DNA of 49,872 nt from Euryarchaeota archaeon SCGC AAA252-I15 (GCA_000402775.1 AQSC01000058.1:1-49872); one strand, 5' to 3'; shown: positions 9,609 to 31,831, numbered from the stretch's first letter. Notes: generated from the letters alone by a model not told the origin. A program made the numbers and translations.

Positions 9609-9664
9609 AATAAAAAAAAGTGGTGTTCGACGGGTTTTTTCCAGCCCGCCGAATCTTGTTTTTT

Positions 9665-11254
9665 TTACTCGTCGAGTATGTTTTCAGCCTGCTCGATATA
9701 GCTTTCGGTGACATAGGGGATGCCGGAGACTTCCGCCGCTTCGCGGGTCAGGCACATGAGGTCGTCCCGCTTGATTACTCCCACATTAAACCTTCGTGCG
9801 CCCGCCATAATCTGTTGGAGCCCTATTGAAAGCTTTTGGACTACGCTGTACACTCCGATTGCACCGAGCGGTATCTTGTCGAAGTCTTTGCCGTTGCGGT
9901 CTTTAAGTTCTGCGTAGTGGATGAATATCTCTTCCTCAGTCGTACCGTAGTCTGAGACCGACTTCGGGAGTTTTCCCTCCTTGATCCACTTGCCGATGTT
10001 TTTACCGACCATTCCGGGGATCATGAGGCCCCTGCCCATGCAGACTGCCTTGACGTATGGCGCGCCCAAGGCGATGGCCTTGAAGATGTGGTCTTCGGTC
10101 GAGAAGCCGCCCGCGAAGGCGAGGTCTGGAACCCGCAAACCCTTCTTCCGAAGCTTTTCCGCGAAGTGGTAGCTCATGGAATGAAGGTAGAATGAGGGCA
10201 CTCCCCACTCGTTCATCATCGGCCACGGGCTCATTCCGGTTCCGCCGGGCGCTCCGTCAATGGTTAGGAGGTCGACTTTTGCCTCACTACTGTAGCGGAG
10301 TGCCATCGCAAGCTCTGGCAGGCCATAAGCTCCTGTTTTGAGTGTAATCCTCTTAAATCCCAGTCCTCTAAGTCTGTCACATTCTTCCATGAAAGCCTCT
10401 TTCGATACGAAGCCGAGGCGCGAGTGGCGTTCGAATTCCTTTATACCGCCAGCCTTGAATGCCGCTTGTATCGCATGGTCTTCTGGGTCGGGGGTTACAA
10501 GGTATCCTCTCTTTTTAAGTTCTAACGCCCTTTCAAGGCTTTTCACTTTGATCTCTCCGCCGATGCATTTTGCACCCTGACCCCACTTAAGCTCGATGGT
10601 GTCCAGGTTGTGCTTGCTCGAAACGTATTCGGCGATGCCTAAGCGCGTGTCTTCGACGTTCATCTGGACGAGGATTTCACCGTAGCCTTCGTGGAAGAGA
10701 TTGTATTGGTTTATCCTCCGGTCCATGTCGGGGGACTCCTTCACTTTTCCGTTTCCGTCGAGTTTTAGTCCGGGGTCGATTCCGCAAACATTTTCGCCGC
10801 ATACGAGTGTGATACCTGATATGGCAGCTCCAATTGCGAACTCATCCCAGTTTTTCCTCGCTATTTCGGTCGAGCCCAATGCGCCTGTGAATATCGGCAC
10901 CTTCATCTTAACTTTCTTGTCCCAACCGTATTCGGTTTCAGTATCTACGGCAGGAAAGATTGCGGTGTTGGGTCCGGGTCTGACTCCTCCAGGAAGACCC
11001 TCAGCACCCGCCGCGTATCCGTGGATGTTCAGATGAGAGTAGTCTATCGGATAATTCTTGTCCGCTCCCGCAGTTATTTCTCCGTATGGTCCGGGATATA
11101 GGAGTTCCCTTCCCCTGAAGGTTGAAAGCCAGAGGTCGCATTTTCCAGTACACCCGTCCACACATTTCGTACATATTCCCGACATGGGGACTACGCTTCG
11201 TGAACGGTTTACCGTCCCCAATGCTTCGTTAGCGTTTGGTCTTCTCAAGTTCAT
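9665..11254 (-). CDS. Archaeal-type glutamate synthase, stand-alone FMN-binding subunit
   Basis: IELKWGQGAK, ITLKTGAY, TIDGAPGGTGMSP, GGFSTEDHIFKAIALGAPYVKAVCMGR. Confidence 0.9.
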   Translation of the reverse strand: MNLRRPNANEALGTVNRSRSVVPMSGICTKCVDGCTGKCDLWLSTFRGRELLYPGPYGEITAGADKNYPIDYSHLNIHGYAAGAEGLPGGVRPGPNTAIFPAVDTETEYGWDKKVKMKVPIFTGALGSTEIARKNWDEFAIGAAISGITLVCGENVCGIDPGLKLDGNGKVKESPDMDRRINQYNLFHEGYGEILVQMNVEDTRLGIAEYVSSKHNLDTIELKWGQGAKCIGGEIKVKSLERALELKKRGYLVTPDPEDHAIQAAFKAGGIKEFERHSRLGFVSKEAFMEECDRLRGLGFKRITLKTGAYGLPELAMALRYSSEAKVDLLTIDGAPGGTGMSPWPMMNEWGVPSFYLHSMSYHFAEKLRKKGLRVPDLAFAGGFSTEDHIFKAIALGAPYVKAVCMGRGLMIPGMVGKNIGKWIKEGKLPKSVSDYGTTEEEIFIHYAELKDRNGKDFDKIPLGAIGVYSVVQKLSIGLQQIMAGARRFNVGVIKRDDLMCLTREAAEVSGIPYVTESYIEQAENILDE

Positions 11255-23928: not shown

Positions 23929-24274
23929 GCCTCGGTAGCTTAGTATACAACCCCCTTCTTTTTCCCGAAAAAGAAAAGCGTTGACGGAAAAGAAAAATCC
24001 AAAAAAAATATGTGACCCAGAACATAAAATTCTGGCGAATAAACAATACACGCTCAGTGTGGCTAAGCGAGTGAAACAAGCGCACGCCGCACCCGCATGT
24101 GGCCGAACCAAAGGTTCGGACACGTGTCGGACTCAAAGTCCGCCACATGTCAACTGGGCGTTACAGTTGCCTCGGTAGCTCAGGTTGGTCGGACTTAGCC
24201 GACGACTAAGGGGCCATCTTCGCTACCGCTCGATGACCCGGAACAAAACGGTGAGAAAAAGGAAGTAAACTTTT
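23929..24274 (+). ncRNA. Unassigned highly structured leader containing two tRNA-Asn 5' copies
   Basis: GCCTCGGTAGCT at 23929 and 24169; near-continuous helices, including a perfect four-way junction at 24095-24150. Confidence 0.5.
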
Positions 24275-24467
24275 GCCTCGGTAGCTCAGTTGGTGGAGCG
24301 CCTGGCTGTTATGCAGAATTCGTAAAACGACCTAGCACGGTCCGACGCCGGCATCACACCCCCACGAGGGGAGTCGAAGCCAAATGGCTGAAGACAAGCA
24401 CGGAGGTCCCCAATGAATCTCTCGCACAGGAACCAGGCGGTCACAGGTTCAAGTCCTGTCCGGGGCG
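24275..24467 (+). tRNA. tRNA-Asn(GTT) with a 120-nt intron at 37/38 (24312-24431)
   Basis: Acceptor stem GCCTCGG/CCGGGGC; D-stem GCTC/GAGC; anticodon stem CCTGG/CCAGG; T-arm ACAGG-TTCAAGT-CCTGT; BHB helix CTGT/ACAG. Confidence 0.93.
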
Positions 24468-31810: not shown

Positions 31811-31831
31811 GTTCAAGTCCTGTCCGGGGCG
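31811..31831 (+). repeat. Perfect 21-bp tRNA-Asn 3' copy (attR-like)
   Basis: GTTCAAGTCCTGTCCGGGGCG identical to 24447-24467. Confidence 0.95.

What the first reader, a model, noticed from the sequence alone, without database searches (positions are those of the whole stretch)
24312..24431. Unusually long (120-nt), multi-branched intron in tRNA-Asn
Seen: a BHB motif, a long bulged basal stem, a GACCT/AGGTC-closed multiloop, hairpins CCCC/GGGG and AGCCA/TGGCT, and AGCACGG twice. Known: most archaeal tRNA introns are short, and long ones (tRNA-Trp) encode box C/D guides. No convincing C/D pair is present here (one CTGA at 24388). The excised circle may be a new functional RNA.
Basis: partly seen in the sequence, partly recalled or inferred. 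Interest (0 to 1): 0.55.

Follow-up and report, generated by a model that had tools for sequence, protein, structure and literature searches.

The report
Long fast-evolving intron in tRNA-Asn
The 120-base intron in this archaeon's asparagine tRNA gene is real, but it is one of many long tRNA introns in this genome, exists only in this genus, and looks like tolerated filler held by a splicing stem, not a new functional RNA.

Summary
Observation confirmed. Window 24275-24467 (+) is tRNA-Asn(GUU) with a 120-nt intron (24312-24431) at the canonical 37/38 site. It has a perfect helix-bulge-helix-bulge-helix splice motif and a roughly 11-bp bulged basal stem.

The "new functional RNA" reading is not supported:
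- The intron is not exceptional here.
- The sequence occurs only in this genome and one congener (94% identity). BLAST and a covariance model found nothing else in 61 genomes of the phylum, and the metagenome and viral scans found nothing.
- In 24 other genomes of the phylum, tRNA-Asn has either no intron (10 genomes) or an unrelated one of 20-122 nt, differing even within genera.
- All 7 differences between the two congeners lie in the GC-rich interior (nt 23-92). None lies in the splice motif or basal stem.
- No box C/D, significant K-turn, Rfam family, conserved ORF or antisense target was found. The AGCACGG repeat and the only CTGA are not conserved.

Best reading: an ordinary spliced intron whose interior is unconstrained hairpin filler, possibly a nested insertion. 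Many other introns here carry dispersed repeat modules, including a triplex-type mirror repeat that this scan already found in DPANN archaea.

The parts
24275..24311 (+). tRNA-Asn(GUU) exon 1 (tRNA positions 1-37; anticodon GTT at 24308-24310)
   Evidence: Rfam RF00005 at 49.3 bits; ARAGORN -i; 100% identical in congener G001.
24312..24431 (+). 120-nt intron at the canonical 37/38 position
   Evidence: 94.2% identical in G001 and found in no other genome searched.
24432..24467 (+). tRNA-Asn exon 2 (positions 38-73, discriminator G)
   Evidence: There are two differences from G001, both in the variable loop.
24306..24312 (+). 5' half of the BHB: C32-U35 (central 4-bp helix strand) and the 3-nt bulge U36 A37|U with the 5' splice site after 24311
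   Evidence: Read by hand. The enforced structure lies 1.3 kcal/mol above the MFE.
24426..24432 (+). 3' half of the BHB: ACAG (pairs with CUGU) and the 3-nt bulge G A|A38 with the 3' splice site after 24431
   Evidence: Read by hand.
24313..24323 (+). 5' strand of the bulged basal stem h' (intron nt 2-12). It pairs with 24413-24425 (nt 102-114), and with the 3' strand carries no substitution between G000 and G001.
   Evidence: Folds; alignment.
24413..24425 (+). 3' strand of the basal stem h' (intron nt 102-114, two 1-nt bulges)
24329..24408 (+). Multiloop domain (intron nt 18-97), closed by GACCU (24329-24333) and AGGUC (24404-24408). It holds hairpins at nt 24-41, 49-60 (CCCC/GGGG) and 62-84 (GUC..GCC/GGC..GAC).
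   Evidence: In G001 the inner hairpins refold differently, while the closing helix and the CCCC/GGGG hairpin persist.
24334..24403 (+). GC-rich interior (nt 23-92; 64% GC against 45% for the genome), bounded by the direct repeat AGCACGG (24334-24340 and 24397-24403). All 7 G000/G001 differences lie here, at 24339, 24365, 24383, 24385, 24389, 24397 and 24402. It is a possible nested insertion with a 7-nt target duplication.
   Evidence: The repeat is degenerate in G001 (AGCACCG / CGCACAG). The nested-insertion reading is inference only.
24169..24274 (+). Context: a 106-nt block directly upstream. It starts with a copy of tRNA nt 1-15, is absent from G001, and carries the 'class B' hairpin module also found in three tRNA introns of this genome.
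   Evidence: (104 gap columns against G001).

Best explanation
This is an ordinary archaeal splicing-endonuclease intron at the canonical 37/38 site of the only tRNA-Asn(GUU) gene in the assembly.

In the pre-tRNA, intron nt 2-12 pair with nt 102-114 to form a bulged stem. That stem stacks on a 4-bp helix (CUGU of the anticodon loop with ACAG of the intron), flanked by two 3-nt bulges. This is a perfect helix-bulge-helix-bulge-helix motif.

The inferred pathway is as follows. The genome's single small (about 170 aa, alpha4-like) EndA cuts in both bulges. RtcB joins the exons and, as in other archaea, probably circularises the intron.

Only the splice motif and basal stem appear to be under selection. 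The 70-nt GC-rich branched interior is unconstrained hairpin filler, most likely acquired by insertion, and is specific to one genus. It belongs to a phylum-wide habit of long, rapidly replaced tRNA introns and is not a dedicated functional RNA.

Shown: the gene, the intron borders, the motif, the restricted distribution, the substitution pattern and the presence of EndA. Inferred: actual splicing, circularisation, lack of function, and an origin by insertion.
For: - Gene and borders.
- BHB conformer within 1.3 kcal/mol of the MFE in both species.
- EndA: one PF01974 match in an open frame of about 170-190 aa in 13 of 13 genomes, including G000 (C31:1122-1382). RtcB is present in congeners G001 and G003 and in 3 other family members.
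- Not exceptional in its genome: 15 intron-bearing tRNAs with lengths 19-162 nt and a median of 86. Long-span tRNAs also occur in other families of the phylum.
- Restricted distribution: BLAST and covariance model R1 find the intron only in G000 and G001 among 61 genomes. One metagenome scan found nothing and the other only chance hits in coding DNA. Two viral scans were empty.
- Turnover at the same site: of 24 other genomes, 10 have no intron and 14 have unrelated introns of 20-122 nt, differing within genera (0 against 71; 122 against 45; 84 against 0).
- Substitutions: 7 of 7 G000/G001 differences lie in the interior 70 nt and 0 in the 50 nt of BHB plus stems ((70/120)^7 = 0.023). None is compensatory, and one breaks a predicted pair.
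- Local rates: the intron is 94.2% identical between the two species, while the adjacent non-coding leader is 97.6%.
- No other signal: no Rfam family other than tRNA, no conserved ORF, and no similarity to other introns or inserts.
Against: - Only two sequences exist, so constraint on the interior cannot be excluded. The CCCC/GGGG and GCC/GGC hairpins and the GACCU/AGGUC helix are intact in both.
- The fold is somewhat more stable than shuffles (z = -2.2).
- An internal loop at nt 62-86 resembles a Kt-7-type K-turn by eye.
- No expression data exist, so a stable circle with a role (for example protein binding) is not ruled out.
- RtcB was not found in G000 itself, although that assembly is only 57% complete.
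- The alpha4 type of EndA is inferred from size and copy number only.
Confidence: 0.7

Rival explanations
1. The intron grew by nested insertion. An older intron of about 56 nt (basal stem, GACCU/AGGUC helix and a 7-nt apical loop AGCACGG) received a hairpin mini-element of about 56-64 nt in its loop, duplicating AGCACGG. This is a sub-case of the best explanation that specifies the origin.
For: - The two AGCACGG copies sit exactly inside the closing helix: GACCU|AGCACGG...AGCACGG|AGGUC.
- Removing one copy and the segment between them leaves a clean stem-loop.
- The interior is 64% GC, the genome 45% and the rest of the intron 48%.
- There is a clear precedent in the same genome. The 146-nt tRNA-Ile intron equals the 89-nt C45 intron plus a two-hairpin insertion of about 54 nt (nt 1-33 and 84-105 match nt 5-37 and 34-55).
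- Dispersed hairpin modules insert at tRNA genes throughout this genome.
Against: - A 7-nt repeat in 120 nt is expected by chance about 0.3-0.4 times.
- In G001 the copies read AGCACCG and CGCACAG.
- The interior has no detectable paralogue in the genome or the phylum.
- The other nested insertions seen here lack clear target duplications.
- No 'empty' allele was found.
Confidence: 0.2
2. The excised, probably circular, intron is a new functional non-coding RNA, for example a protein-binding or regulatory RNA.
For: - The fold is structured, branched and GC-rich, and is more stable than shuffles (z = -2.2).
- Three helices are intact in both species.
- There is a Kt-7-like arrangement, GGCU-GAA-GA opposite GA-AGCC, at nt 62-86.
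Against: - The intron is confined to one genus, and other genera have unrelated introns or none.
- The interior diverges faster than the neighbouring non-coding leader and shows no compensatory changes.
- The inner hairpins refold differently in G001.
- K-turn-like patterns are no more frequent in these introns than in shuffles (26 observed, 33 expected), and this one fails in G001 because of U78C.
- No Rfam match was found.
Confidence: 0.08
3. The intron encodes a box C/D (or H/ACA) guide RNA, like the tRNA-Trp intron of Euryarchaeota.
For: - It has the length class of guide-bearing introns.
- There is one CUGA (24388-24391).
- An ACA lies 3 nt from the intron's 3' end.
Against: - There is no RUGAUGA-like C box, and the only CUGA becomes CCGA in G001.
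- The ACA is forced by pairing with the CUGU of the anticodon loop in the BHB.
- No Rfam sRNA or snoRNA family matches, even at E up to 10.
- The only antisense hit in the genome is a 17-nt chance-level match (E = 0.9).
- The recurrent 15-18-nt hits in relatives are sense matches to the start of a protein gene (MAEDK...).
Confidence: 0.02
4. The gene is a decaying or island-borne pseudo-tRNA and the 'intron' is simply a disruptive insertion that is not spliced.
For: - The gene sits in an insertion hot spot, with duplicated 5' ends upstream.
- Earlier notes report copies of the tRNA's 3' end downstream, and one search shows one 3'-end copy at 31811-31831.
Against: - It is the only tRNA-Asn in the assembly.
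- The exons form a standard cloverleaf scoring 49 bits, and they stay conserved across the phylum while the intron is replaced.
- The insertion lies exactly at 37/38 with a perfect BHB, preserved without substitution in both species.
Confidence: 0.03

Closest known systems
Canonical-position BHB introns of archaeal pre-tRNAs, cut by the splicing endonuclease EndA and joined by RtcB (reviewed in PMC4090602)
   Same: It sits at position 37/38 and has a helix-bulge-helix-bulge-helix motif with a 4-bp central helix and two 3-nt bulges. An EndA gene is present. No catalytic RNA features or ORF are present.
   Different: At 120 nt it lies near the top of the catalogued range (11-129 nt, medians 12-25 nt). 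It lies in a genome where most tRNAs carry introns with a median of 86 nt, two of them (146 and 162 nt) beyond that range. Its nearest named relative is labelled only 'Methanobacteriota archaeon'.
tRNA-Trp intron of Euryarchaeota, which nests a box C/D guide RNA (Haloferax, Pyrococcus; cited in PMC4090602)
   Same: It is a long canonical intron that is expected to be released as a circle.
   Different: It has no C/C'/D/D' boxes, no guide complementarity and no conservation outside one genus. The tRNA species is also different.
Transposed or rapidly gained tRNA introns of Thermoproteales (Fujishima et al. 2010, recalled from memory) and the mobile-element model of tRNA gene disruption in Caldiarchaeum (PMC3293823)
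   Same: There is fast gain, loss and replacement of intron sequence among close relatives. Intron sequence families are shared between different tRNAs of one genome. tRNA 5' fragments lie beside the genes.
   Different: The tRNA-Asn intron studied here has no paralogue. Introns here are at the canonical site and much longer. The inserted pieces are about 65-240-nt gene-less modules, and no recombinase gene was seen among the ten flanking ORFs scanned.
Intrastrand triplex (mirror-repeat) DNA motifs of bacteria (Holder et al. 2015, PMC4666352), and the triplex-type hairpin repeat that this scan reported earlier in tRNA introns of DPANN archaea
   Same: Seven other tRNA introns of this genome, two 5' inserts, and several tRNA-Asn introns of relatives carry a pyrimidine-run hairpin followed by a purine run that mirrors the hairpin's purine arm.
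   Different: The G000/G001 tRNA-Asn intron itself does not contain this module. The motif here is A/T-rich and lies inside transcribed introns.

Membership tests
Archaeal BHB (splicing-endonuclease) tRNA intron | The interruption lies within an otherwise complete tRNA gene whose exons join to form a standard cloverleaf. | tested here: met
   Rfam tRNA matches at 49.3 bits over model positions 1-71, with the insertion after position 37. The exons align with intron-less tRNA-Asn genes of 10 relatives.
Archaeal BHB (splicing-endonuclease) tRNA intron | Both splice sites lie in 3-nt bulges separated by a 4-bp helix and flanked by helices (hBHBh'). | tested here: met
   CUGU pairs with ACAG. The bulges are UA|U and GA|A. 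The anticodon stem lies below and an 11-bp bulged stem above. Enforcing this structure costs only 1.3 kcal/mol in both species.
Archaeal BHB (splicing-endonuclease) tRNA intron | The splicing endonuclease and RNA ligase are encoded by the organism. | tested here: met
   EndA (PF01974) is at G000:C31:1122-1382 and in 13 of 13 genomes. RtcB (PF01139) was not found in the 57%-complete G000 but is present in congeners G001 and G003.
Archaeal BHB (splicing-endonuclease) tRNA intron | The intron is actually excised and the exons ligated in vivo. | not testable with these tools
   No transcriptome data were available.
Intron-encoded box C/D guide RNA (tRNA-Trp type) | A C box (RUGAUGA) and D box (CUGA) form a K-turn, usually with C'/D' boxes. 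| tested here: not met
   There is no C box. The single CUGA is lost in G001. K-turn-like patterns are at shuffle level. No Rfam C/D family matches at E up to 10.
Intron-encoded box C/D guide RNA (tRNA-Trp type) | A guide of 10-12 nt upstream of D or D' is complementary to a tRNA or rRNA target. | tested here: inconclusive
   A whole-genome BLAST of the intron gives only a 17-nt hit at E = 0.9. However, only part of the 23S rRNA and no 16S rRNA are assembled.
Triplex-type mirror-repeat hairpin module ('class A' here) | A pyrimidine-run / purine-run hairpin is followed by a second purine run that mirrors the first. | tested here: not met
   The module is absent from the G000/G001 tRNA-Asn intron. 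It is present in 7 other introns of this genome and in several tRNA-Asn introns of relatives; the four parsed (L014, L015, L021, L025) all score mirror above direct.

The most novel reading that the evidence does not exclude
In this phylum, long tRNA introns may be built and enlarged at the DNA level by small gene-less hairpin modules. The same modules also insert at tRNA 5' ends, where they duplicate 15-23 nt of the gene. On this reading the tRNA-Asn intron is a caught example: an old ~56-nt stem-loop intron that received a ~60-nt hairpin element in its apical loop, flanked by a 7-nt AGCACGG duplication. That would give a concrete route for the growth and gain of archaeal tRNA introns, which a recent preprint on Asgard tRNA introns still calls open (bioRxiv 10.64898/2026.10.13.758758, abstract).
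Probability: 0.2. Interest if true: 0.6.

Novelty: new member of a known kind. Interest (0 to 1): 0.3.

Why it matters
On its own, this intron is one more canonical archaeal tRNA intron, so it matters little.

Its context is more informative. About 60% of the tRNA genes in this uncultured archaeon carry introns with a median length of 86 nt. Published medians are 12-25 nt, and only about 8% of euryarchaeal tRNA genes are reported to be interrupted. At the tRNA-Asn site, intron content is replaced even between species of one genus, and only the splice motif and its supporting stem stay fixed.

This makes the lineage a good natural system for two questions: how archaeal tRNA introns are gained, enlarged and lost, and how much 'cargo' the strict BHB splicing system tolerates. 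If the nested-insertion reading is right, the intron shows intron growth by mobile hairpin modules directly.

Tried and rejected
- **Box C/D or H/ACA guide.** There is no C box, the CUGA is not conserved, the ACA is forced by the BHB, and Rfam finds nothing.
- **K-turn or L7Ae site at nt 62-86.** It looks like Kt-7 by eye. However, a pattern count over all introns and inserts equals the shuffle expectation (26 observed, 33 expected), and the motif fails in G001.
- **Small ORF.** No frame is open and conserved. The ATG of the 10-codon frame is lost in G001.
- **Antisense target.** The recurrent 15-18-nt hits to intron nt 71-88 in about 11 relatives looked promising. The one inspected (G004) is a sense match to the first codons of a protein gene (MAEDKLQ...), which would explain the recurrence, and the segment is altered in G001.
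- **Homologues elsewhere.** BLAST over 41 and then 61 genomes found none. A covariance model built from the two sequences gave best foreign hits of E = 0.057 and 0.23, both in coding-like DNA. Of two metagenome scans, one was empty and one gave 3 chance hits in coding DNA. Two viral scans were empty.
- **Similarity to other introns, 5' inserts or relatives' tRNA-Asn introns.** A small dedicated database gave nothing with blastn (word size 7) or nhmmer.
- **Conservation above background.** The intron (94.2% identity) is less conserved than the adjacent leader (97.6%).
- **Taxon naming.** I can say only that the congener's record is titled 'Methanobacteriota archaeon'. The 'Altiarchaeota' label comes from earlier notes of this scan and I did not check it.

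Full report
**1. What is there**

Rfam's tRNA model matches window 24275-24467 (+) at 49.3 bits, well above the gathering score of 29. The match has one 121-nt insertion after model position 37. ARAGORN in default mode finds no tRNA in the window. With introns allowed, it calls tRNA-Asn(gtt) with a 120-nt intron.

Reading the sequence gives these parts:
- Exon 1: 24275-24311. It holds the acceptor GCCUCGG, the D arm, the anticodon stem CCUGG and the loop CUGUUA.
- Intron: 24312-24431.
- Exon 2: 24432-24467. It holds A38, CCAGG, the variable loop, the T arm, CCGGGGC and the discriminator G.

**2. Splice motif**

The anticodon-loop bases C32 U33 G34 U35 pair with intron bases A115 C116 A117 G118. 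The 5' splice site lies in the bulge U36 A37|U1. The 3' splice site lies in the bulge G119 A120|A38. The anticodon stem closes one side of the motif. On the other side is an intron stem in which nt 2-12 pair with nt 102-114, with two 1-nt bulges. This is a perfect hBHBh' motif.

When the cloverleaf and this motif are enforced, the energy is -74.2 kcal/mol, while the unconstrained MFE is -75.5. In the congener the values are -67.6 and -68.9.

Above the basal stem, GACCU/AGGUC closes a multiloop that contains three hairpins. The intron alone folds at -37.8 kcal/mol, with z = -2.2 against dinucleotide shuffles.

The 'AGCCA/TGGCT' hairpin is really AGCC/GGCU with a 4-nt loop.

**3. The intron is not exceptional in its own genome**

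The window is contig C58 of a 1.33-Mb, 57%-complete assembly. ARAGORN with introns allowed gives 25 calls in this genome, one of them a false hit in a tandem repeat. Fifteen carry introns, of 19, 52, 56, 75, 81, 82, 83, 86, 87, 88, 89, 119, 120, 146 and 162 nt, with a median of 86.

For comparison, a 2014 review gives an archaeal range of 11-129 nt with medians of 12-25 nt. It also reports that about 8% of euryarchaeal tRNA genes are interrupted (PMC4090602).

Infernal also finds tRNA spans of 104-193 nt in genomes of four other families of the phylum.

So 'unusually long' is true against the textbook picture, but it is a property of the lineage and not of tRNA-Asn in particular.

**4. Distribution**

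*This intron sequence*
- The whole pre-tRNA is 95% identical in congener G001. That record is JBDRAY010000013.1, titled 'MAG: Methanobacteriota archaeon'.
- The intron alone, searched by BLAST over all 61 genomes held for the phylum, hits only G000 and G001.
- A covariance model built from the two sequences with the shared structure gives the same result. Its best foreign hits (E = 0.057 and 0.23 per genome) lie in coding-like DNA.
- An end-anchored pattern found nothing in the metagenome collection.
- A 21-mer from the intron found only three chance hits, all in coding DNA.
- Two viral-collection scans were empty.
- The other two genomes of the genus have no assembled tRNA-Asn.

*The same site in other genomes*
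- I located tRNA-Asn in 24 further genomes. Ten have no intron.
- The other fourteen carry introns of 20, 23, 24, 45, 57, 60, 61, 71, 72, 73, 84, 100, 111 and 122 nt. All are at 37/38, and none resembles this one.
- Content differs even within genera: G005 has none and G015 has 71 nt; G004 has 122 and G014 has 45; G034 has 84 and G035 has none.

**5. Constraint**

G000 and G001 differ at 7 intron positions: 28, 54, 72, 74, 78, 86 and 91. All seven lie in the interior (nt 23-92). None lies in the 50 nt that form the BHB, the basal stem and the closing helix. If substitutions fell uniformly, the chance of this is (70/120)^7 = 0.023.

The seven substitutions map onto the predicted structure as follows:
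- None is compensatory.
- G28C breaks a predicted G-C pair.
- U78C breaks the outer pair of the AGCC/GGCU hairpin.
- The inner hairpins refold differently in G001.

Compared with its surroundings, the intron is 94.2% identical between the two species. The adjacent non-coding leader is 97.6% identical, one neighbouring ORF 98.0% and another 90.4%.

Both copies of AGCACGG are altered in G001 (AGCACCG and CGCACAG), and the only CUGA becomes CCGA.

The picture is selection on the splice platform and none detectable on the cargo. Two sequences give little statistical power, and I say so.

**6. Functional signals looked for and not found**
- No Rfam family other than tRNA matches, even at E up to 10 on the intron alone.
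- There is no C box.
- The ACA that sits 3 nt from the intron's end is dictated by pairing with CUGU in the BHB.
- A Kt-7-like arrangement (GGCU-GAA-GA opposite GA-AGCC) caught my eye at nt 62-86. However, the same pattern definition gives 26 hits over all introns and inserts, while shuffles give 33, and this one fails in G001.
- No reading frame is conserved.
- The cluster of 15-18-nt hits to nt 71-88 in relatives is explained, in the one case inspected (G004), by identity to the first codons of a protein gene.

**7. Machinery**
- One PF01974 (EndA) match lies in an open frame of about 170-190 aa in 13 of 13 genomes, including G000 at C31:1122-1382. From established knowledge of EndA types, this size and single copy fit the homotetrameric alpha4 type, which needs a strict BHB. 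That agrees with the canonical, perfect motif here. The type is inferred.
- RtcB is missing from the incomplete G000 assembly. It is present in G001, G003 and three other family members.

**8. Context that bears on origin**

Many other introns of this genome are built from dispersed modules.

*Class A.* This module is a pyrimidine-run hairpin followed by a purine run that is the mirror image of the hairpin's purine arm.
- In the 13 parsed copies where R1 is not itself mirror-symmetric, the mirror alignment scores at least as well as the direct one. It is strictly better in 12 and tied in one.
- It occurs in 7 introns of this genome, in two 5' inserts, and in several tRNA-Asn introns of relatives.
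- Earlier agents of this scan reported the same triplex-type repeat in tRNA introns of DPANN archaea. They compared it with the bacterial intrastrand triplex motifs of Holder et al. 2015; I confirmed that paper exists and says this.

*Class B.* This is a hairpin of the form GGCCAUC-UUC-G...C-CUC-GAUGACC, with a conserved C/A mismatch and co-varying flanking pairs.
- The genome holds about 25 convincing copies. They lie in three introns, in five 5' inserts, just downstream of several tRNAs, and elsewhere.

*Duplicated 5' ends.* Nine tRNA genes are preceded by a copy of their own first 14 nt or more (about 15-23 nt where the copy was read through), followed by such modules. One example is the 106-nt block directly upstream of this tRNA-Asn, which is absent from G001. 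Another agent has already reported on that upstream leader.

*Nested growth.* Nested insertion is directly visible in this genome. The 146-nt tRNA-Ile intron equals the 89-nt C45 intron plus an insertion of about 54 nt with two hairpins.

**9. Where the tRNA-Asn intron fits**

The tRNA-Asn intron contains neither module and has no paralogue. One feature of its geometry is nevertheless suggestive. The two AGCACGG copies sit immediately inside the closing helix. Deleting one copy and the segment between them leaves a clean 56-nt stem-loop intron with a 7-nt loop. The deleted segment is 64% GC, in a genome of 45% GC.

I therefore rate a nested insertion with a 7-nt target duplication at about 0.2. 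A 7-nt repeat is not improbable by chance, the copies are degenerate in G001, and no empty allele is known.

**10. Verdict**

This is a real, correctly delimited canonical BHB intron. It is long by textbook standards, but it is ordinary for its genome and restricted to one genus. Only its splice platform looks constrained. The box C/D idea is refuted, and the 'new functional RNA' idea is unsupported though not formally excluded. The interesting biology is at lineage level: many long, modular, fast-turning tRNA introns and tRNA-targeted mini-insertions. Other findings of this scan already cover parts of that.

Noticed in passing
own genome G000: C28:6907-7061, C31:8718-8952, C32:6158-6378, C37:7617-7814, C45:12361-12522, C47:6250-6411, C52:33123-33286; window ~23929-24000: Seven tRNA introns and two 5' inserts share a 'class A' module. 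It consists of CCC, a pyrimidine-run hairpin, a UGYUUCAY-CCCC linker, and a second purine run that mirrors the hairpin's purine arm with co-varying G positions. This is the sequence signature of an intramolecular triplex. Some introns (Met on C37; the G004 tRNA-Asn intron) carry it twice, in both orientations.
   Followed up: partly
own genome, about 25 copies, e.g. window 24203-24240; C45:22862; C40:3317 and 3196; C43:26452 and 26283; C59:53630: A 'class B' dispersed hairpin, GGCCAUC-UUC-G..C-CUC-GAUGACC, has a conserved C/A mismatch and co-varying neighbouring pairs (AUC/GAU alternating with GUC/GAC). It is found in tRNA introns, in 5' duplicative inserts, directly downstream of tRNA genes, and at sites with no called tRNA nearby. 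Its function is unknown.
   Followed up: partly
own genome: upstream of tRNAs on C37 (Met, Ser-GCT), C40 (Arg-TCG), C43 (Lys), C45, C51 (Arg-GCG), C58 (Asn), C59 (Pro-TGG): Nine tRNA genes are preceded, 84-346 nt upstream, by a copy of their own first 14 nt or more (about 15-23 nt where read through). The copy is followed by class A or B or other hairpin modules and an A-rich tail. A duplication of variable length plus an A-rich 3' end would fit retroposition-like insertion as well as att-site integration.
   Followed up: partly
window 24169-24274 against L004 (G001): The 106-nt block directly upstream of tRNA-Asn consists of a copy of tRNA nt 1-15 followed by a class B module. It is absent from the congener, so it is a recent insertion or deletion polymorphism. 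Its inner part is homologous to the tRNA-Thr(GGU) intron family of the same genome.
   Followed up: partly
own genome C37:~9650-10056: There are two tandem tRNA-Ser(GCU) genes. The upstream copy has a class A intron at 37/38 and a second two-hairpin intron in the T-loop region. About 90 nt downstream lies an intron-less copy.
   Followed up: no
own genome C31:8718-8952: ARAGORN calls this tRNA-Arg(CCT) with a 162-nt intron. By BHB geometry (CUCC pairing with GGAG; bulges AG|C and UG|A) it is more likely tRNA-Trp(CCA) with a canonical intron. That intron carries a class A module and shows no obvious C/D boxes, unlike the tRNA-Trp introns of other Euryarchaeota.
   Followed up: partly
own genome C32:6158-6378 against C45:12361-12522: The 146-nt tRNA-Ile intron equals the 89-nt C45 intron (class A) plus a two-hairpin insertion of about 54 nt between the hairpin and the mirror strand. 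This is a clear case of intron growth by nested insertion.
   Followed up: partly
own genome C46:9778-9877: The ARAGORN call 'tRNA-Ser(aga)' is a false positive inside a tandem repeat with a unit of about 21 nt (GGCTCAGAAGGCTTAAGCTTA).
   Followed up: no
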